64,000 bases of DNA from a phage. The DNA is taken from sequence record OZ346189.1; one strand, 5' to 3'. Position numbers and translations under genes: made by a program. This document shows, piece by piece, positions 21,794 through 61,555 of this stretch. The number at the start of each line of letters is the position of its first letter. Within the stretch, counting starts at the first letter, position 1. The notes under the pieces are model-generated. The model was not told the DNA's origin. It saw only the letters and a list, made by a program, of their open reading frames with translations, and did not search any database.

Positions 21794-21869
21794 TCAGTCT
21801 CCCGTCTTGTTAAGATGAAGGTATTATTTCACACAGGGTTGGCGTTGTCAACACCTGTGTGCAAGAAAA

Positions 21870-22265
21870 TTACTGAAACAGTGCGGATAAATTACCTTCT
21901 GGTGGGAACTTATCTGCCAAAAACGGTGTTAGCACAGTAGCCTTCTGAAGATCTGGGGTCCACTCGTTGTTCAGAACATCCCAGTAGTACGCAATGTTGC
22001 TGTGTGGGTGCCGCATTACGAACTTTTTCCCTTCGTAGTCATCTGAAACCTCTACAGAAGAAATAACAACAGAATCTTCAAGGGTTTCTTCATAGAAAGA
22101 TCCACCTTCAAATTTCCAACGAGATGCAAGAGCTCCTGCCTTGAACGCTGCAGATAACGGACTGTCTGCAAGAACATACATTTCTTGCACTCTGTCGCTG
22201 CGATCTTTGCTTCTTACGTTGTATACAGTATCTGAGCTATACTCAACACGGTATAGGCTTACCAT
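21870..22265 (-). CDS. hypothetical protein, paralog family B
   Basis: shares the HP-x-S...YW....W-TP motif with 24072..24470. Confidence 0.5.
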   Translation of the reverse strand: MVSLYRVEYSSDTVYNVRSKDRSDRVQEMYVLADSPLSAAFKAGALASRWKFEGGSFYEETLEDSVVISSVEVSDDYEGKKFVMRHPHSNIAYYWDVLNNEWTPDLQKATVLTPFLADKFPPEGNLSALFQ

Positions 22266-22601: not shown

Positions 22602-22865
22602 TCACCCAACAACCATAGCTTCAAAAGGGGTCATGAACGAATAAACGGCATCATCATCTGCTTCAGGGAATGCTCCCAAAGACTTCATGTCTGAGCCCTT
22701 GACAAATACAAGGTTTTGATCAAAAGCTTCTTGAGGATCAATCCGATACATATTTCGTAGAATATCGCCTACCTCCTCATCAAGAGGTGAGTATGCTGTG
22801 CACGTTTTTCCGATCAAGCTTTGAGAATCAGGGTATCCACCTGAAGTTTTAAAATAAACAATCAT
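22602..22865 (-). CDS. hypothetical protein
   Basis: ORF. Confidence 0.45.
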   Translation of the reverse strand: MIVYFKTSGGYPDSQSLIGKTCTAYSPLDEEVGDILRNMYRIDPQEAFDQNLVFVKGSDMKSLGAFPEADDDAVYSFMTPFEAMVVG

Positions 22866-22956: not shown

Positions 22957-23226
22957 TTATTCCTCTACAATCTCATACACATCCGGAGTTACAATCAACT
23001 CTTCTCCGTTACCCGGTGCAACAAACACCACCATGCCTTCAGGTGTGTGCTTTTTAGCCATCTCGATAACATCTTCTCGCAGAGCTGGCTCCATCAGATC
23101 AAAACCTTCACCCAGGGCATCACGAACCACCTTCATATAGTCAACTGGTTGTGCTTCGACAATCATACCTTCAACCAGTCCACAGTTTTTGTCTGCCAGC
23201 TCAGTTTTGAATAATTTAATTTTCAT
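22957..23226 (-). CDS. hypothetical small protein (family A-like)
   Basis: MKIKLFK... ends YEIVEE. Confidence 0.45.
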   Translation of the reverse strand: MKIKLFKTELADKNCGLVEGMIVEAQPVDYMKVVRDALGEGFDLMEPALREDVIEMAKKHTPEGMVVFVAPGNGEELIVTPDVYEIVEE

Positions 23227-23363
23227 TTAGAGGTCTCCTCAATTATTTGATATTAATAGCCGTAACCTAACACATTAACTACAACTGCGATTGCAAACAT
23301 AATTTCAAAGCATGCAATCTCTACATTTGGAACTAATTTCTTGATCACACCCATTGTAGCACC

Positions 23364-23681
23364 TCATTCTCTAAAGTCAATCTTTACTTTGCCTTTCCCC
23401 TTACCTTTCTTTCCACCGCATTTAGCCAGTTGACGTGCTGCAACATCTACCATACGGTCAGTTGCCTCGTAAGCATCACTGCCTTTAGCTTTGGCAATAA
23501 CTTCTTTTCCAGAATTGTCAAAAATGAACGCCATAACTTCCTGGTGATCATTTTCAACTTTTACACTCACACGTGCATAGTTGGCAGAGGGATGCAAACG
23601 CTCCAGCTTAGACATTTTGTGGGAAATGAAAGACACCATACCTTCAGTGATTTCTACGTTGCCAGTGATTTCAATTTGCAT
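23364..23681 (-). CDS. hpf: ribosome hibernation promoting factor (HPF/RaiA/YfiA family) homolog
   Basis: MQIEITGNVEITEGM...KLE...VKVE...G.D.Y.A.D...ARQL aligns along its length with E. coli HPF (MQLNITGNNVEITEA...). Confidence 0.75.
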   Translation of the reverse strand: MQIEITGNVEITEGMVSFISHKMSKLERLHPSANYARVSVKVENDHQEVMAFIFDNSGKEVIAKAKGSDAYEATDRMVDVAARQLAKCGGKKGKGKGKVKIDFRE

Positions 23682-23763
23682 AACGTGTTCCTTTTAAAGA
23701 AGAGGGAACCAAACCCTCTTTGAAAACAATGATACTAAATCTGAAGCGTTGTGTCAACAGTTT

Positions 23764-24071: not shown

Positions 24072-24470
24072 TCAGTTTAGCTTTTCTTCAACAACCCCAT
24101 AGCTCGGGACAGAGTCAAGAGCTTTCTGGTTTAAAAGTGGTGTAGCAGAATCTGCAAACGGTGTCCAAGTTTTTGTTCTGGCATTCCAGTAATGCTTCAC
24201 TCTGGAATCTGGATGCACTATAACAAAAACTTTTTCACTTGTCAACACATTAATTTCTTCTACACCCTTGCTGATAATTTCTCCGTCATAGCCACCAGTC
24301 TGGTATCCTTCGTACCAGGTTCTTGCATATGCATAGCCAGCCTGCCAGCATGCAGCCTCCTCCGAGGTGGAGACTACGTAGAAGTCTTTCTCAAATTCTG
24401 GGATACGCCCTTGCTTTACGCTCCAAGCTCCGCGAATTTTCATTGTAACTTTGAACAGTTTATTTTTCAC
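24072..24470 (-). CDS. hypothetical protein, paralog family B
   Basis: VIVHPDSRVKHYWNARTKTWTP matches VMRHPHSNIAYYWDVLNNEWTP of 21870..22265. Confidence 0.5.
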   Translation of the reverse strand: MKNKLFKVTMKIRGAWSVKQGRIPEFEKDFYVVSTSEEAACWQAGYAYARTWYEGYQTGGYDGEIISKGVEEINVLTSEKVFVIVHPDSRVKHYWNARTKTWTPFADSATPLLNQKALDSVPSYGVVEEKLN

Positions 24471-24482
24471 AACGGTTACCCA

Positions 24483-24737
24483 TCACAGCTCTACAATCTC
24501 TGCATCTGACCCTGCCCCAAAGGCATAATAGGATTCTTCCCCGAAATAATATTCCGGTGCACCAGCAGCGATCAGGTCTGATCCCAAGATAAACACCACG
24601 TTGTGGCCTACATAACTGTGATGTTGCCGCACAGGATCATCCCACGGCAACCCTTCAAAGTATACCGCAGGAACGACCTTTCCCTTCAGGAAGGATTGTC
24701 CCAAGTAGACGTTAGAATCAAGAATTTTAACCTTCAT
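24483..24737 (-). CDS. hypothetical small protein, paralog family A
   Basis: MKVKILDSNVYLGQ...DLIAAGA...EIVEL; close paralog of 24727..24954. Confidence 0.5.
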   Translation of the reverse strand: MKVKILDSNVYLGQSFLKGKVVPAVYFEGLPWDDPVRQHHSYVGHNVVFILGSDLIAAGAPEYYFGEESYYAFGAGSDAEIVEL

Positions 24738-24954
24738 TCTCGTCCTCCACTATCTCTACATCCTCACCAAGGGCAAAGTTGTAGGTCCACTGGCTGTCAA
24801 AGCAGTCCTGAGATGCACCAGCGGAAATAAGATCTGCACCTTTTATTTTTAAAAGGTCAGGATAATCTTCGTTAGGGATAGCGGTAAACACTTTCCCCAC
24901 TAAGGGCTCCTGACCAATATAGAAGCTTGAATCTAAAACTTTAACTTTCATCAA
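24727..24954 (-). CDS. hypothetical small protein, paralog family A
   Basis: MMKVKVLDSSFYIGQ...DLISAGA...EIVEDENEG. Confidence 0.5.
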   Translation of the reverse strand: MMKVKVLDSSFYIGQEPLVGKVFTAIPNEDYPDLLKIKGADLISAGASQDCFDSQWTYNFALGEDVEIVEDENEG

Positions 24955-38412: not shown

Positions 38413-40728
38413 TTATAGTGCACAGCTTTCGCAATACGGATCTTCAACTGAACTATCTGCAATCAAAGGATAGTTCTTTCTGGTTTCATCTTCAGCCTGT
38501 TTCTTGGCATGAAGTTCCTCTGCCAAGGAGTCACCCGCACCAACCCTAGAGTTTAAATAATACCATGTCTTCATTCCGAATTTAGTGGCACGGATAAGGT
38601 ACCCTAGCTGCTCCTTCATTGAAATTTTACCATCTTTCAACTTGGTGTAGTCTATGTATAAATCCGCGCTGATTGCCTGACCTGTGAATTTTTGAATCAC
38701 AGCATACATATCGATCATGTCGTTAGTATCAACGTCCCAAGCCGAAGTGTAATACTCTTTCAACTCATCATAGTCAGGAACGATAAACAGCACCTGCCCT
38801 TGTGGCGACTTTTTAAAGATAATGTGCTCACGGACAGGATAAACCCCGTTAGTGGTGTTTGTTGCCAGCGAAGAGCTTTCATTAGGCATATATGCTTCAA
38901 GAACGCTATTACGTAGCCCACCATTTTCAACGATTTCTTTACGTAACCCTTCCCAATCCTGTTTAAGAGAAGGATCTTTCACCACGCTATCGACCTCTTT
39001 GTTATAGGTGTCGATTGGTAACCAACCTTCTGGATATTTTGTTTTATGCATCCACTCGCAGACACCACGCTCTTTTGCCAACCGTAAACTTGCCTTATGC
39101 AAGCTGTAGCTGTGAAGTTCTGCAAGATCGTGAACGAGCTGTTTACTTTCAGGAGACCCGTAAGTAACCTTGTGGCTGGCAATAAAATGTGCAACATTGG
39201 TAAGGCCAACCCCGATGGATCTGCGTTTTTTAACTGTGCTTTCCATATTTTCATACGGATATGTCATGATTTCCATAACATTGTCAATCATAAGCACCGT
39301 ATAGTATGCAACATCCTCATACTCCTCTGGAGTAACCCTCCCAGCTACAAGAGATGACAGGAAGCACAATGCAACCTCTCCATCATCAGCATCGTACTTG
39401 AAGATATTACGCATATCTGAATAGCCTTTTGTCGGGAGGGCTATTTCTGCACACAGGTTGCTTGAATAGATCACATCTTTAAAAGGTGTATGTCTATTCA
39501 TCTCATCTGTCCAGTATACGTACAGCCTTCCCACCTCAGTGCGCTGCGTGATCAGTTCAACAGCAAGATCTCTAGCTCGGATCCATGTTTTAGGAATACT
39601 GTCATCTTTAGCAATACGATCAACCTCTGCATCAAACTCCTCTATAGACATGGTGAAGATACCCTCATGCAGTTGAGGCGCGTGCTTATAAGAAACAAGC
39701 ATCCAATCTAAATTCTTAGCCACACGGTTGATAAACGACCTATTAATACCGATGGAGTAGTCCATGGTGTTGATTCTTTTTGAAGCAACAGTCATAGGGT
39801 TTCTCAAACGGATTAGCTCATCAATCTGCGGGTCCAGTGCAAGGAATGATACTGTTGCAGAACCACCACGTGATTGTTGTCTGTTCTCCTTAACCCCAGC
39901 ATCAATACCTCGATAATATGGAATCTTACCCATATGTTTAATAGTGTTACCACGAACACCATCGCCTGCAGATCTTGAGGATAAGTAGTAGCCGATACCT
40001 GCTTGGTTAACCGTCATTGTGTACGCAACTTCACGTGCCACACCAATAGATTTTGCTGTATCGTCAGCTTTTATTACACAACAAGATGCATACCCTGTCT
40101 TACCTGTGCGCAGCCCGTTTAAGTACGGTGTCGGGGCATTGATCTTTAAGTCGGACAGGTAAGTGTATAATTTTACAACATCGTTGATACGACGTTCTTT
40201 CGGCATATTCTTCATGACAGCCATTGCTATCCCCATAAACATCATCTGGGGAGATTCAAACAAGGTGTCTTTAAGAGTATCCTTGATCCCGTATTTGTCG
40301 CGAAACTGTTTAAGGACTGCATAGCCATAACCGAGATCTTTACTGTGATCAATAACAGTGCCTAAAGTGTTTAACTCGGTAAAGCTATAACCCATATCCT
40401 CCCAATACCCTTTCTCAACCATGTCGTTGTAAAATGATGGTAAGGAAGGGATCTTTGTAAACCCTCCAAAAGCCTCTTTATAAATCTGACCAATAAGAAC
40501 ACGACCAGCCATACGGGAATGTGCTTCGTCTTTACGGCTAACACAGGAGTCTATGATAGCTTGGTTAACTTCTTTGGTTGTACATCCATCATACAGTCGT
40601 TTGTATGCATCCAGTGCAATGTGTGACCAATTGCCGTTACCGTCGTCACCGAAAATAGCTGCCTTATTTAAACGTTCTGGATCGAATGCCACTTCACATC
40701 CGTTGCTTTTAATTACCTTGGTGATCAA
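38413..40728 (-). CDS. nrdA: ribonucleotide reductase class Ia alpha subunit
   Basis: 771 aa; N-terminal ATP cone; active-site motif SNLCAEIALPT. Confidence 0.85.
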   Translation of the reverse strand: MITKVIKSNGCEVAFDPERLNKAAIFGDDGNGNWSHIALDAYKRLYDGCTTKEVNQAIIDSCVSRKDEAHSRMAGRVLIGQIYKEAFGGFTKIPSLPSFYNDMVEKGYWEDMGYSFTELNTLGTVIDHSKDLGYGYAVLKQFRDKYGIKDTLKDTLFESPQMMFMGIAMAVMKNMPKERRINDVVKLYTYLSDLKINAPTPYLNGLRTGKTGYASCCVIKADDTAKSIGVAREVAYTMTVNQAGIGYYLSSRSAGDGVRGNTIKHMGKIPYYRGIDAGVKENRQQSRGGSATVSFLALDPQIDELIRLRNPMTVASKRINTMDYSIGINRSFINRVAKNLDWMLVSYKHAPQLHEGIFTMSIEEFDAEVDRIAKDDSIPKTWIRARDLAVELITQRTEVGRLYVYWTDEMNRHTPFKDVIYSSNLCAEIALPTKGYSDMRNIFKYDADDGEVALCFLSSLVAGRVTPEEYEDVAYYTVLMIDNVMEIMTYPYENMESTVKKRRSIGVGLTNVAHFIASHKVTYGSPESKQLVHDLAELHSYSLHKASLRLAKERGVCEWMHKTKYPEGWLPIDTYNKEVDSVVKDPSLKQDWEGLRKEIVENGGLRNSVLEAYMPNESSSLATNTTNGVYPVREHIIFKKSPQGQVLFIVPDYDELKEYYTSAWDVDTNDMIDMYAVIQKFTGQAISADLYIDYTKLKDGKISMKEQLGYLIRATKFGMKTWYYLNSRVGAGDSLAEELHAKKQAEDETRKNYPLIADSSVEDPYCESCAL

Positions 40729-60742: not shown

Positions 60743-60817
60743 GCCCTGTTAGCTTAGTGGATAAAGCAGCGGCCTTCTAAGCCGTTGACACTGGTTCGAG
60801 TCCAGTACGGGGTGCCA
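60743..60817 (+). tRNA. tRNA-Arg (anticodon TCT)
   Basis: hand-folded cloverleaf: acceptor GCCCTGT/ACGGGGT, anticodon stem GCGGC/GCCGT with loop CTTCTAA, T-arm ACTGG-TTCGAGT-CCAGT, encoded CCA. Confidence 0.65.
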
Positions 60818-60821
60818 AATT

Positions 60822-60900
60822 GGGGAGTTATCCCGTAGAGGTAGCGGTGTAGACTGTAAATCTATTGTCATTGCGACTCGGGTGGTTCGACTCCACCACT
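60822..60900 (+). tRNA. tRNA-Tyr (anticodon GTA)
   Basis: acceptor GGGGAGT/ACTCCCC, anticodon loop CTGTAAA, long variable arm, T-arm GGTGG-TTCGACT-CCACC, CCA. Confidence 0.65.
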
Positions 60901-61022
60901 CCCCACCAAATTTATATTTTTAGATGCATAAATAATACAGATAATGGCATTGATATTTATCGTCGTTTATACTAGTCACTAACTGCTCGAAAATCAGTGT
61001 CATTATCAGTATAATTTATAAA

Positions 61023-61113
61023 GGAGGGTAGGGAGCAATGGTGCTCAAGCGGTCTTGAAAACCGTCCCGTTGAGGATGACTCGATGATGGTTCGATTCCA
61101 TTACTCTCCGCCA
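61023..61113 (+). tRNA. tRNA-Ser (anticodon TGA)
   Basis: class II fold: 3-bp D stem, anticodon loop CTTGAAA, long variable arm, T-loop TTCGATT, CCA; acceptor has one G-U pair. Confidence 0.55.
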
Positions 61114-61210
61114 CATTGTTGACCTTGTAATTAAGCGAAAGCCGGAAGCAGAACCGGATTATCAAATGTTACAGTCGTCATCGCCGACTAGCAACATGGT
61201 CAACATACTG

Positions 61211-61308
61211 AGCTAGGTAAGCCCTTTGGCAAGGGCGAGGATTTTTAATCCTGAAAATAGACGAGGTAGTCGTTGAATACATAGGTGGTTCGATTCCATC
61301 ACCTAGCA
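61211..61308 (+). tRNA. atypical tRNA-like sequence (anticodon loop reads TTTTTAA, possibly Lys-TTT) with an approximately 30-nt insertion in the variable region
   Basis: acceptor GCTAGGT/ACCTAGC, D-arm GCCC/GGGC and T-arm GGTGG-TTCGATT-CCATC are recognisable; anticodon stem has only 4 bp; no encoded CCA. Confidence 0.3.
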
Positions 61309-61315
61309 CCTTTTT

Positions 61316-61391
61316 GCTGATGTAGCACAATCGGTAGTGCAATTGATTTGTAATCAATAGGTTGTAGGTTCAAGTCCTGCCATCAGCACCA
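61316..61391 (+). tRNA. tRNA-Thr (anticodon TGT)
   Basis: acceptor GCTGATG/CATCAGC, anticodon stem ATTGA/TCAAT with loop TTTGTAA, T-loop TTCAAGT, CCA. Confidence 0.65.
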
Positions 61392-61392
61392 A

Positions 61393-61467
61393 GGCCCTGT
61401 AGCTGGAAGGTTCAAGCAAGCGACTCATAATCGCCAGACGGTGGTTCAATTCCACCCAGGGCCACCA
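61393..61467 (+). tRNA. tRNA-Met or tRNA-Ile2 (anticodon CAT)
   Basis: acceptor GGCCCTG/CAGGGCC, anticodon loop CTCATAA, T-arm GGTGG-TTCAATT-CCACC, CCA. Confidence 0.6.
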
Positions 61468-61478
61468 AATAGTAAATA

Positions 61479-61555
61479 CTCCGCGTAGCTCAGCTTGGTA
61501 GAGCGCCTGATTTGGGATCAGGAGGTCGAGTGTTCGAATCACTCCGTGGAGACCA
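61479..61555 (+). tRNA. tRNA-Pro (anticodon TGG)
   Basis: acceptor CTCCGCG/CGTGGAG, D-arm GCTC-AGCTTGGTA-GAGC, anticodon stem CCTGA/TCAGG with loop TTTGGGA, T-arm GAGTG-TTCGAAT-CACTC, CCA. Confidence 0.7.

What the first reader, a model, noticed from the sequence alone, without database searches (positions are those of the whole stretch)
23364..23681. Phage-encoded ribosome hibernation factor (HPF/RaiA) homolog inside the small-gene array
The 105-aa protein aligns along its whole length with bacterial HPF/YfiA (MQ-I/L-x-ITG-N-VEITE...KLE...VKVE...G.D.Y.A.D...RQL). HPF binds the 30S decoding region and silences ribosomes. A phage copy could reprogram or protect host ribosomes during infection or counter translation-targeting defences.
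Basis: partly seen in the sequence, partly recalled or inferred. Interest (0 to 1): 0.65.

Follow-up and report, generated by a model that had tools for sequence, protein, structure and literature searches.

The report
Known phage HPF-like ribosome factor
The gene is a real but divergent copy of the bacterial ribosome hibernation factor HPF carried by rV5-like E. coli phages. It was already annotated in 2006 and published and tested in 2019, so the finding is correct but not new, and its role in infection remains unknown.

Summary
Window 23364..23681 (minus strand) encodes a 105-aa protein of the HPF/YfiA (Ribosomal_S30AE, PF02482) family: Pfam 48.3 bits (cut-off 23.7), TIGR00741 45.9 (cut-off 40.9), and 43% identity to E. 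coli HPF over 88 residues. An AlphaFold model superposes on ribosome-bound E. coli HPF (TM 0.90, rmsd 1.1 A). Only residues 1-89 align; residues 89-105 are a disordered Gly/Lys-rich tail.

The window is Escherichia phage AlexBoehm (Vequintavirus). The gene is annotated as HPF, RaiA or 'sigma 54 modulation factor' in about 119 phage records going back to rV5 (2006). Mizuno et al. 2019 (Nat Commun) described it and expressed it in E. coli. They found it in lysate but not in 500 mM NH4Cl-washed 70S/100S ribosomes, and it did not change 100S levels.

What I add:
- It is a genus-level core gene, absent from sister genera.
- It is under strong purifying selection (core dN/dS 0.04-0.17).
- It is not a recent host capture (at most 45% identity to any cellular protein; no DNA match in E. 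coli).
- It sits behind an invariant sigma70-type promoter.
- It keeps the central rRNA-contact residues (K22, K25, R28, R83, K87, K91), but the E-site-proximal C-terminus is replaced by a variable basic tail.

Novelty: already known. The mechanism in infection is still open.

The parts
23364..23681 (-). CDS of the 105-aa HPF/YfiA-family (Ribosomal_S30AE) protein; identical to bas56_0150 of phage AlexBoehm and 99% identical to rV5 ORF144 (ABI79209)
   Evidence: ORF; Pfam, NCBIfam and PHROG hits; PDB hits; 100% match to MZ501048
23418..23681 (-). Folded beta-alpha-beta-beta-beta-alpha core (residues 1-88), homologous to short HPF
   Evidence: AF2 pLDDT above 90 over residues 1-88; Foldseek TM 0.90-0.94 to HPF structures; core dN/dS 0.04-0.17
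23364..23417 (-). Gly/Lys-rich C-terminal tail (residues 89-105, GGKKGKGKGKVKIDFRE, net charge +5) plus the stop codon. It is predicted disordered, has no counterpart in HPF or YfiA, and varies in length between alleles
   Evidence: Unaligned; pLDDT below 50 for residues 91-105; charge; indel, frameshift and truncation alleles of 99-106 aa
23729..23757 (-). Sigma70-type promoter-like site, TTGACA-17-TATCAT (11 of 12 matches), starting 7 nt after the stop of the upstream gene
   Evidence: The same site is annotated 'Sigma70-type promoter P144' in the rV5 record. The -35 box and its flank ACTGTTGACAC are invariant in 13 alleles, including the 64%-identical sister lineage
23682..23728 (-). Predicted 5' UTR with a small hairpin (AAGAGGG/CCCTCTT, 23698-23720) and the Shine-Dalgarno AAGGA 7 nt before the ATG. 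The hairpin is probably not functional
   Evidence: Sequence. Fold of -9.9 kcal/mol with z=-0.34 against shuffles. Some alleles weaken the hairpin without compensation, and the sister lineage lacks it
23253..23354 (-). Conserved 33-aa hydrophobic ORF starting 9 nt after the HPF stop, with SD GAGGT (phrog_15151, unknown function). It is probably co-transcribed; no functional link has been shown
   Evidence: present downstream in most alleles

Best explanation
The gene encodes a divergent, single-domain member of the HPF/YfiA (S30AE) ribosome hibernation factor family, fixed in the genus Vequintavirus. It is most likely transcribed early by host sigma70 RNA polymerase. Like its cellular relatives, the protein most likely docks reversibly into the channel between the head and body of the 30S subunit of vacant host ribosomes. 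Helix alpha1 (K22, K25, R28) and helix alpha2 (R83, K87, K91) would lie on 16S rRNA around m4C1402 and m3U1498, occluding the mRNA and tRNA sites. Its C-terminus lacks the HPF residues that contact E-site tRNA and G693 (K89, K93, H95). In their place is a flexible polycationic tail 4-11 residues longer than E. coli HPF, depending on the allele. My inference is that the protein keeps idle ribosomes as protected, monomeric, quickly reusable 70S particles under phage control, without needing RMF, rather than promoting 100S dimers. What is shown: family membership, fold, retention of the central contact residues, purifying selection, genus-wide conservation, and the promoter motif. What is inferred: early timing, ribosome binding during infection, and the physiological benefit.
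For: Family membership and fold. The protein is closer to HPF than to YfiA: NF007780 55.8 bits against NF007654 17.6 bits, PDB E=5e-12 against 0.35, and 43% against 26% identity. Contact residues are those documented in bioRxiv 10.1101/2025.10.07.680626 and 10.1101/382572. K23, K26, Q29, E60, H62, R83, K87 and K91 are kept or conservatively replaced. F54, A86 and V80 lie within the variation seen in cellular homologs. New lysines on beta4 (K64, K66) and the tail raise the pI to 9.0, against 6.5 for E. coli HPF. Selection: core dN/dS 0.04-0.17, with 44 synonymous and 15 nonsynonymous variants. The gene is present in about 119 of about 120 Vequintavirus records and at the syntenic position in a 64%-identical uncultivated lineage. 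The promoter is invariant, and TGTTGACA is about 10-fold enriched and co-oriented with genes. Constitutive expression in E. coli was tolerated and left the 70S profile unchanged, which fits a reversible binder of idle ribosomes rather than a toxin.
Against: The only experiment is Mizuno et al. 2019 (PMC6375957). It detected the rV5 protein (99% identical) in lysate but not in purified 70S or 100S, and saw no change in 100S. That test used late-exponential cells (OD600 = 1) and a 500 mM NH4Cl cushion. From my own knowledge of ribosome preparation protocols (not checked here), cellular HPF, RMF and YfiA are also stripped by high-salt washing, so the result is weak but real counter-evidence. Several contact positions differ: T53 to F52, K80 to V, K89 to G, K93 to G, H95 to G and R33 to S. 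The score is far below the HPF equivalog cut-off (55.8 against 125). No transcriptome confirms early expression. The AF2 model used an alignment dominated by enterobacterial HPFs, so its closeness to HPF is partly built in.
Confidence: 0.55

Rival explanations
1. Anti-hibernation competitor, which is the hypothesis of Mizuno et al. The phage protein occupies the HPF site, and like YfiA its extended C-terminal tail reaches the RMF site. It would block RMF-dependent 90S/100S dimer formation that the stressed host triggers on infection, or loosen existing hibernation complexes in stationary-phase hosts, so that ribosomes stay available for phage mRNAs.
For: The tail extends up to 10 residues beyond the end of E. 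coli HPF and is strongly basic. The YfiA C-terminus protrudes into the RMF site and prevents 100S formation (PMC5620043). HPF's own C-terminal contacts (K93, H95) are lost. The window has no RMF homolog, so the phage supplies no dimerisation partner. The idea was proposed in PMC6375957.
Against: The tail is not homologous to the YfiA tail. Natural alleles shorten it to 99-101 aa by truncation or frameshift, so a precise RMF-site interaction is unlikely. A protein in the HPF site still blocks tRNA and mRNA binding, so it does not in itself release translation. Expression did not measurably change the small 100S peak, although the cells were not in stationary phase.
Confidence: 0.2
2. Shield against ribosome-targeting host defences. 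By plugging the decoding channel of idle ribosomes, the protein would protect 16S rRNA (the A-site, the 3' end and the anti-SD region) from defence or toxin nucleases and from RNase-mediated ribosome decay triggered by infection.
For: Cellular hibernation factors directly block ribonucleases from entering the ribosome (title and abstract of PMC7913689) and antagonise RNase R (title and abstract of PMC8406268). The gene lies in an early-type array of small accessory genes, which is where phages typically keep host-takeover and anti-defence functions (the second part is general knowledge). The BASEL paper reports that Vequintavirinae lack effective protection against restriction-modification systems.
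Against: There is no direct evidence. The protein gives no hit to any defence-related model, and no known defence system is reported to be countered by it. Genus-wide near-invariance, rather than the patchy, fast-evolving pattern typical of anti-defence genes, argues for a housekeeping role in infection.
Confidence: 0.12
3. Exapted RNA- or protein-binding module that no longer works on the ribosome. [quoted passage not shown]
For: No ribosome association was detected although the protein was clearly expressed. The score is far below both equivalog cut-offs. The beta-sheet face has unusual substitutions (T53 to F) and new lysines K64 and K66. The lineage is isolated, at most 45% identical to any cellular homolog among 1.84 billion representatives. 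A precedent for moonlighting exists: S. aureus HPF binds YwlG (PMC9522360 abstract).
Against: The residues that remain invariant in both phage lineages are the rRNA-contacting ones of the family (K22, K25, R83, K87) plus the fold core, which is what continued ribosome binding predicts. The negative assay used conditions that are not decisive.
Confidence: 0.1
4. Decaying passenger gene with no function, a remnant of an old horizontal transfer.
For: The tail shows frameshift and truncation alleles (APECc02, Murica), and one record (inoa) carries an N-terminal 6-residue deletion.
Against: Core dN/dS is 0.04-0.17. The reading frame is intact in all 15 alleles examined. The gene is retained in about 119 of about 120 genomes of the genus and in a lineage diverged to 64% identity, with its promoter conserved.
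Confidence: 0.03

Closest known systems
rV5 ORF144 / gp144 'sigma 54 modulation factor' (ABI79209), the phage HPF homolog studied by Mizuno et al. 2019, Nat Commun 10:752
   Same: It is the same gene: 99% identical (a single G104R difference), same genomic position, same promoter P144. It is annotated as 'ribosome hibernation factor' in the identical AlexBoehm record.
   Different: Nothing of substance. The window allele has R104 where most alleles have G104.
Short HPF (YhbH) of gammaproteobacteria, e.g. E. coli HPF (PDB 2RQL, 4V8H, 6H4N) and V. cholerae HPF (4HEI)
   Same: [quoted passage not shown] 38-43% identity. N-terminal MQ(I/L)xITG motif. Conserved K23, K26, D69, Y71, R83 and K87. This is the closest cellular subfamily by every score.
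   Different: The score is well below the equivalog cut-off (55.8 against 125). The protein lacks K80, K89, K93 and H95, the last two of which contact E-site tRNA and G693. T53 is replaced by F. The C-terminus is up to 10 residues longer and Gly/Lys-rich. The pI is 9.0 against 6.5. The window has no RMF partner, and the published test saw no 100S promotion.
YfiA / RaiA / protein Y (E. coli, PDB 4V8I, 1N3G)
   Same: Same fold and presumed binding site. Like YfiA, it has a C-terminal extension beyond the HPF length, which in YfiA blocks RMF binding and 100S formation. RefSeq names the phage protein 'RaiA'.
   Different: Only 22-26% identity. NF007654 scores 17.6 bits against a cut-off of 158. 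The tail is unrelated in sequence and opposite in charge: +5 and Lys/Gly-rich, against -3 with an acidic end in YfiA.
Other phage-encoded S30AE proteins (Cronobacter phage GAP32 K4F6Q6, Escherichia phage PBECO4 L7TII8; phrog_8990)
   Same: Same fold, and found in large virulent myoviruses of enterobacteria.
   Different: Only 18-23% identity. They fall in a different PHROG: phrog_8990, against phrog_12469 for the rV5 type, which PHROGs still lists as 'unknown function'. These are independent acquisitions, according to the phylogeny in PMC6375957.

Membership tests
HPF/YfiA superfamily (Pfam PF02482 Ribosomal_S30AE; NCBIfam TIGR00741) | Profile match above the curated threshold | tested here: met
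   PF02482 48.3 bits against a gathering score of 23.7, covering profile positions 1-83 of 88; TIGR00741 45.9 bits against 40.9
HPF/YfiA superfamily (Pfam PF02482 Ribosomal_S30AE; NCBIfam TIGR00741) | [quoted passage not shown] | tested here: met
   AF2 model with mean pLDDT 83.6 and core above 90. Foldseek: 4hei_A TM 0.94, rmsd 0.9 A; 6h4n_x TM 0.90, rmsd 1.1 A; all 37 hits with E<=1e-3 are HPF, YfiA or pY. Caveat: the alignment used for modelling was dominated by enterobacterial HPFs
HPF/YfiA superfamily (Pfam PF02482 Ribosomal_S30AE; NCBIfam TIGR00741) | Conserved basic 16S rRNA contact residues on helices alpha1 and alpha2 (E. coli K23, K26, K80, R83, K87, K91) | tested here: met
   Five of the six are retained (K22, K25, R83, K87, K91). 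K80 is Val, which also occurs in 2 of 17 cellular homologs aligned.
HPF/YfiA superfamily (Pfam PF02482 Ribosomal_S30AE; NCBIfam TIGR00741) | Binds the 30S decoding channel of vacant ribosomes | not testable with these tools
   The published assay on the rV5 protein was negative, using late-exponential cells and a 500 mM NH4Cl wash. I judge those conditions not decisive
Short HPF (YhbH) equivalog, NCBIfam NF007780 | Equivalog-level profile score | tested here: not met
   55.8 bits against a cut-off of 125; it is nevertheless the best-scoring subfamily
Short HPF (YhbH) equivalog, NCBIfam NF007780 | C-terminal residues that contact E-site tRNA and stack on G693 (K93, H95), with length about 95 aa | tested here: not met
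   G93 and G95 in the phage protein; length 105 aa with a Gly/Lys tail
Short HPF (YhbH) equivalog, NCBIfam NF007780 | Converts RMF-induced 90S dimers into 100S | not testable with these tools
   The published expression test saw no effect on 100S. No RMF homolog is present in the window; the rest of the genome was not scanned
YfiA / RaiA equivalog, NCBIfam NF007654 | Equivalog-level profile score and a homologous C-terminal tail | tested here: not met
   17.6 bits against a cut-off of 158; 26% identity; the tail is unrelated and of opposite charge
Long HPF (dual-domain, self-dimerising) | C-terminal dimerisation domain after a linker (about 180-190 aa in total) | tested here: not met
   The protein is 105 aa with one domain and a 17-residue disordered tail

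The most novel reading that the evidence does not exclude
The rV5-type protein is not a hibernation factor in the cellular sense. Instead it would be a phage-evolved ribosome-hijacking variant in which the HPF core anchors at the decoding centre and the polycationic tail has replaced the E-site contacts. The phage would use it early in infection to take control of the idle-ribosome pool. It could block host RMF/HPF-driven 100S dormancy, which is a candidate dormancy-type anti-phage response, or shield rRNA from defence nucleases. It would release readily for phage mRNA translation, which would also explain its loss in high-salt preparations.
Probability: 0.2. Interest if true: 0.65.

Novelty: already known. 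Interest (0 to 1): 0.25.

Why it matters
Ribosome hibernation decides whether stressed or stationary bacteria can resume growth, and whether a phage can replicate in them. A virulent phage genus that has kept its own HPF-type protein under strong purifying selection, behind an early-type promoter, implies that control of idle ribosomes matters for infection. The existence of the gene is not news: it has been annotated since 2006, was published and tested in 2019, and was listed as an auxiliary gene of rV5 phages in 2020. The open part is the mechanism. The only experiment was negative under non-decisive conditions. The BASEL phage AlexBoehm on E. coli K-12 is a tractable system for settling it. 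The residue-level picture here (central contacts kept, E-site end replaced by a variable basic tail) gives concrete mutants to test.

Tried and rejected
1. A recent capture of host hpf is rejected. No blastn match was found in 5,426 complete E. coli genomes. The nearest cellular proteins are at most 45% identical among 1.84 billion representatives. This qualifies the 'relatively recent transfer' statement in PMC6375957.

2. The 5' UTR hairpin as a regulatory element or terminator is rejected. Its folding energy is no better than shuffled sequence (z=-0.34). Several alleles weaken it without compensating changes, and the sister lineage lacks it.

3. I looked for a functional partner in the neighbourhood. 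Ten flanking ORFs have no Pfam hits and only unknown-function PHROGs. No RMF, YfiA, Sra or bS21 homolog is present in the window.

4. A second 'sigma 54 modulation factor' is annotated on the 89-aa ORF at 22957-23226 in some records. It has no similarity to HPF (E=42; no Pfam hit), so this is an annotation-transfer error.

5. The hit to P0126 (1160 aa, 8 matched stretches) is a repeat protein unrelated to HPF (sequence) and was discarded as spurious.

6. The single-sequence AF2 model (pLDDT 52) was too poor to use and was replaced by an alignment-based model.

7. The word-indexed homolog search with the phage protein found only its own clade, and IMG/VR held only two extra loci.

8. Literature searches for newer experiments on phage HPF, or for a Vequintavirus transcriptome, found nothing beyond Mizuno 2019 and Mathieu 2020.

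9. PADLOC gave no defence-system match.

Full report
OBSERVATION.
It runs from ATG to TGA at window 23364..23681 on the minus strand and encodes 105 aa (sequence). It is one of more than 40 co-oriented small ORFs.

Profile searches are unambiguous. Pfam PF02482 (Ribosomal_S30AE) gives E=1.8e-12 and 48.3 bits against a gathering score of 23.7, covering profile positions 1-83 of 88. NCBIfam TIGR00741 (HPF/YfiA family) gives 45.9 bits against a cut-off of 40.9. phmmer against PDB sequences puts E. coli HPF (2RQL, 4V8H, 6H4N) first at E=5e-12 to 2e-11. tblastn of E. coli HPF against the window gives 43% identity over 88 residues, E=1.7e-14, whereas YfiA gives 26%, E=0.02.

One detail of the observation needs correcting. 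The alignment stops at residue 89-91. The last ~15 residues (GGKKGKGKGKVKIDFRE) have no counterpart in HPF or YfiA.

IDENTITY OF THE WINDOW AND PRIOR KNOWLEDGE.
The region is 100% identical to Escherichia phage AlexBoehm (Bas56, MZ501048; genus Vequintavirus), where this CDS is bas56_0150, 'ribosome hibernation factor'. About 119 phage records carry the gene at 94% amino-acid identity or more. They label it 'sigma 54 modulation factor' (rV5, DQ832317, 2006), 'hpf', 'RaiA' and similar names.

Mizuno et al. 2019 (PMC6375957) listed the rV5 protein ABI79209 among virus-encoded ribosomal proteins, placed it among gammaproteobacterial HPFs, and expressed it from pBAD24 in E. coli. Mass spectrometry found its peptides, including the C-terminal VKIDFGE, in crude extract but not in purified 70S or 100S, and 100S abundance did not change. 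Their methods show that cells were harvested at OD600 = 1 and that ribosomes were pelleted through 500 mM NH4Cl. Mathieu et al. 2020 (PMC6969025) again listed hpf as an auxiliary gene of rV5 phages.

I found no later experimental work and no Vequintavirus transcriptome. The finding is therefore correct but already known.

STRUCTURE.
A single-sequence AlphaFold run was poor (pLDDT 52). With an alignment of the phage clade plus enterobacterial HPFs (A2), the model reached a mean pLDDT of 83.6. Residues 1-88 scored above 90, in the order beta-alpha-beta-beta-beta-alpha, and residues 91-105 scored below 50, i.e. disordered.

Foldseek against the PDB returned only HPF, YfiA and pY chains among the 37 hits with E<=1e-3. 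The best were V. cholerae HPF (4hei_A, TM 0.94, rmsd 0.9 A) and ribosome-bound E. coli HPF (6h4n_x, TM 0.90, rmsd 1.1 A). The alignment was dominated by HPFs, so the closeness is partly built in, but the fold assignment is safe.

In BFVD only about five viral proteins share the fold confidently, including those of Cronobacter phage GAP32 and Escherichia phage PBECO4, at 18-28% identity. PHROGs places the rV5 type in its own family, phrog_12469, still labelled 'unknown function', separate from phrog_8990 (S30EA).

RIBOSOME-CONTACT SURFACE.
I took the contact list from recent cryo-EM work on Gram-negative HPF and YfiA (bioRxiv 10.1101/2025.10.07.680626) and from the E. coli 100S structure (bioRxiv 10.1101/382572). 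I mapped it through an alignment with 17 diverse cellular homologs (A1).
- Retained or conservatively replaced: K23 to K22, K26 to K25, Q29 to R28, E60, H62 to I62 (Val in YfiA), R83 (contacts m4C1402), K87 and K91.
- Within the variation seen in cellular homologs: H55 to F54, T86 to A86 and K80 to V80.
- Unusual: T53 to F52 (the m2G966 contact), and the whole E-site-proximal end, K89 to G, K93 to G and H95 to G. In E. coli HPF, K93 and H95 contact the E-site tRNA and stack on G693.

Of the four basic residues that describes as identical between E. coli HPF and YfiA and involved in binding (K80, R83, K87, K91), three are kept. The phage protein also gains lysines on beta4 (K64, K66) and a tail of net charge +5, giving a pI of 9.0 against 6.5 for E. 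coli HPF. The surface is largely intact but remodelled at the C-terminal end.

EVOLUTION.
An exhaustive phmmer search of 1.84 billion cluster representatives found only 22 hits at E<=1e-3. The phage clade collapses into one 50%-identity cluster, represented by P0004 at 65% identity. The next real hits are gammaproteobacterial short HPFs at 31-45% identity.

No nucleotide match exists in 5,426 complete E. coli genomes. This is an old, diverged acquisition and not a recent capture.

P0004 sits at the syntenic position of a similar small-gene array on uncultivated 125-137 kb contigs. It is not present in any cultured phage record.

Using NrdA (window 38413-40728) as a marker, about 120 records match at 95% identity or more, which corresponds to the genus. 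Another 62 match at 80-90%, which I take to be sister genera. The HPF gene is found in about 119 records, so it is effectively a genus-level core gene that the sister genera lack. One Salmonella phage record has a homolog below 60% identity, which I did not examine.

Across 15 alleles the core (codons 1-88) has dN/dS of 0.04-0.17 relative to the window allele, with 44 synonymous and 15 nonsynonymous variants. The tail changes by indels, a frameshift (APECc02...GRKKGKGERQSKD) and a truncation (Murica...GKGKAK), giving lengths of 99-106 aa, but it always stays Lys/Gly-rich. The fold is tightly constrained. The tail is constrained in composition, not in sequence.

EXPRESSION SIGNALS.
Seven nucleotides after the stop of the upstream gene lies TTGACA-17-TATCAT (23757-23729, minus strand; 11 of 12 matches). 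The rV5 record annotates the same site as 'Sigma70-type promoter P144'. The -35 box with its flank ACTGTTGACAC is invariant in 13 alleles, including the P0004 lineage.

TGTTGACA occurs 24 times in the window against about 2.4 expected. Strong sigma70-like sites follow gene orientation: plus strand up to 19.3 kb, minus strand from 20.2 to 56 kb, then plus again. This agrees with the 33 sigma70-type promoters reported for rV5 (PMC3606486). It supports transcription by unmodified host RNA polymerase, and therefore probably early transcription, but the timing is inferred.

A small hairpin in the predicted 5' UTR is not supported as functional (z=-0.34; not conserved). A conserved 33-aa hydrophobic ORF follows 9 nt after the stop.

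SURROUNDINGS.
Ten flanking ORFs have no Pfam hit and only unknown-function PHROGs. The window contains no RMF, YfiA, Sra or bS21 homolog. PADLOC models give no hit.

MECHANISM.
The best-supported reading is that this is a genuine S30AE-family protein that docks reversibly into the 30S head-body channel of vacant host ribosomes via helices alpha1 and alpha2. It would be expressed from a host-type promoter soon after infection. Because it lacks HPF's E-site contacts, carries a longer flexible polycationic tail, and has no phage RMF partner in the window, I infer that it holds idle ribosomes as protected 70S monomers rather than promoting 100S.

The tolerance of E. coli to constitutive expression argues against a strong shut-off toxin.

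The published negative binding result counts against this model but is not decisive, given the late-exponential cells and the 500 mM NH4Cl wash. To my knowledge, cellular hibernation factors are also removed by high-salt washing; I did not verify that here.

The rivals are:
- a YfiA-like anti-dimerisation competitor, the Mizuno hypothesis, for which the tail argument draws;
- a shield against defence or decay nucleases, by analogy with PMC7913689 and PMC8406268;
- exaptation to a non-ribosomal target;
- a decaying passenger gene, which the selection data effectively exclude.

COMPARISON AND NOVELTY.
Membership of the HPF/YfiA superfamily is met on profile, fold and core contact residues. Membership of the HPF equivalog (55.8 against 125 bits; K93 and H95 absent), the RaiA equivalog (17.6 against 158 bits; unrelated tail) and long HPF (no C-terminal domain) is not met. 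It is best described as a divergent, phage-specific offshoot of short HPF. The RefSeq name 'RaiA' should be read as the generic family name.

Because the gene, its family assignment and a first functional test are all published, novelty is 'already known'. The increments here are genus-level core status, the age of the acquisition, the selection pattern, the remodelled C-terminus and the promoter conservation. The remaining interest lies in the unresolved mechanism, for which the BASEL phage on E. coli K-12 offers a direct experimental route.

Noticed in passing
window 60743-61555 (+): A cluster of seven ARAGORN-predicted tRNA genes (Arg-tct, Tyr-gta, Ser-tga, Thr-tgt, Met-cat, Pro-tgg). It includes an odd 99-nt 'tRNA-???' at 61212-61310 with a four-base anticodon call (atcc), which could be a false call, an intron-containing tRNA or an unusual tRNA.
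   Followed up: no
whole window; e.g. minus-strand sites at 21853, 23759, 24247, 31656 and 33047: The extended -35 motif TGTTGACA occurs 24 times against about 2.4 expected. Strong sigma70-like promoters are co-oriented with genes and switch strand at about 19.3-20.2 kb and about 56 kb. This suggests a phage-specific upstream extension of host-type promoters.
   Followed up: partly
window 24727-24954, 24483-24737 and 22602-22865 (-); also 24072-24470 and 21870-22265 (-): The small-gene array contains paralog families. Two adjacent ORFs, and more weakly a third, hit phrog_5009. The 132-aa and 131-aa ORFs flanking the HPF region are 28% identical (E=7e-10). All are of unknown function.
   Followed up: partly
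window 23364-23420 (-), tail codons; alleles in L010, L011, L013, L014, L018 and L007: The Gly/Lys tail, encoded by a run of AAA/AAG and GGN codons, is a hotspot for indels, a frameshift (APECc02) and a truncation (Murica). Phage 'inoa' carries an in-frame loss of residues 2-7 (or a different start) between the two EIT repeats at the N-terminus.
   Followed up: partly
phage records MT884008-MT884011, OR062525, OR062528 and OR062530; MN8506xx records; window 22957-23226: Annotation errors in public records. The HPF gene is labelled 'ATP-dependent protease La type I' in several genomes. The unrelated 89-aa ORF downstream is labelled 'sigma 54 modulation factor' in the MN8506xx series, although it has no similarity to HPF.
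   Followed up: yes
phage records MG065644-MG065684 ('Campylobacter phage', UNVERIFIED): Eighteen records named Campylobacter phage, with host given as C. jejuni, are about 98% identical to E. coli Vequintaviruses across this region and are classified as Vequintavirus. They are probably mislabelled or contaminant genomes.
   Followed up: no
window 23253-23354 (-): A conserved 33-aa hydrophobic ORF (MGVIKKLVPNVEIACFEIMFAIAVVVNVLGYGY; phrog_15151) starts 9 nt after the HPF stop and has its own SD. It looks like a small membrane peptide, probably co-transcribed with the HPF gene.
   Followed up: no
window 23690-23720 (-) compared with L002 4985-5000: Relative to the 64%-identical sister lineage, Vequintavirus alleles carry a ~26-nt insertion between an ancestral SD-like GAGGG and the ATG. 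The insertion creates a new SD (AAGGA) and a hairpin that pairs with the old GAGGG. The functional meaning is unknown, and the hairpin is not statistically supported.
   Followed up: partly
L002-L005 (Logan and ENA contigs of 15-125 kb): An uncultivated phage lineage has a syntenic small-gene array and a 64%-identical HPF homolog (P0004). No cultured phage record carries that variant. This looks like a Vequintavirus-related lineage known only from metagenomes.
   Followed up: partly
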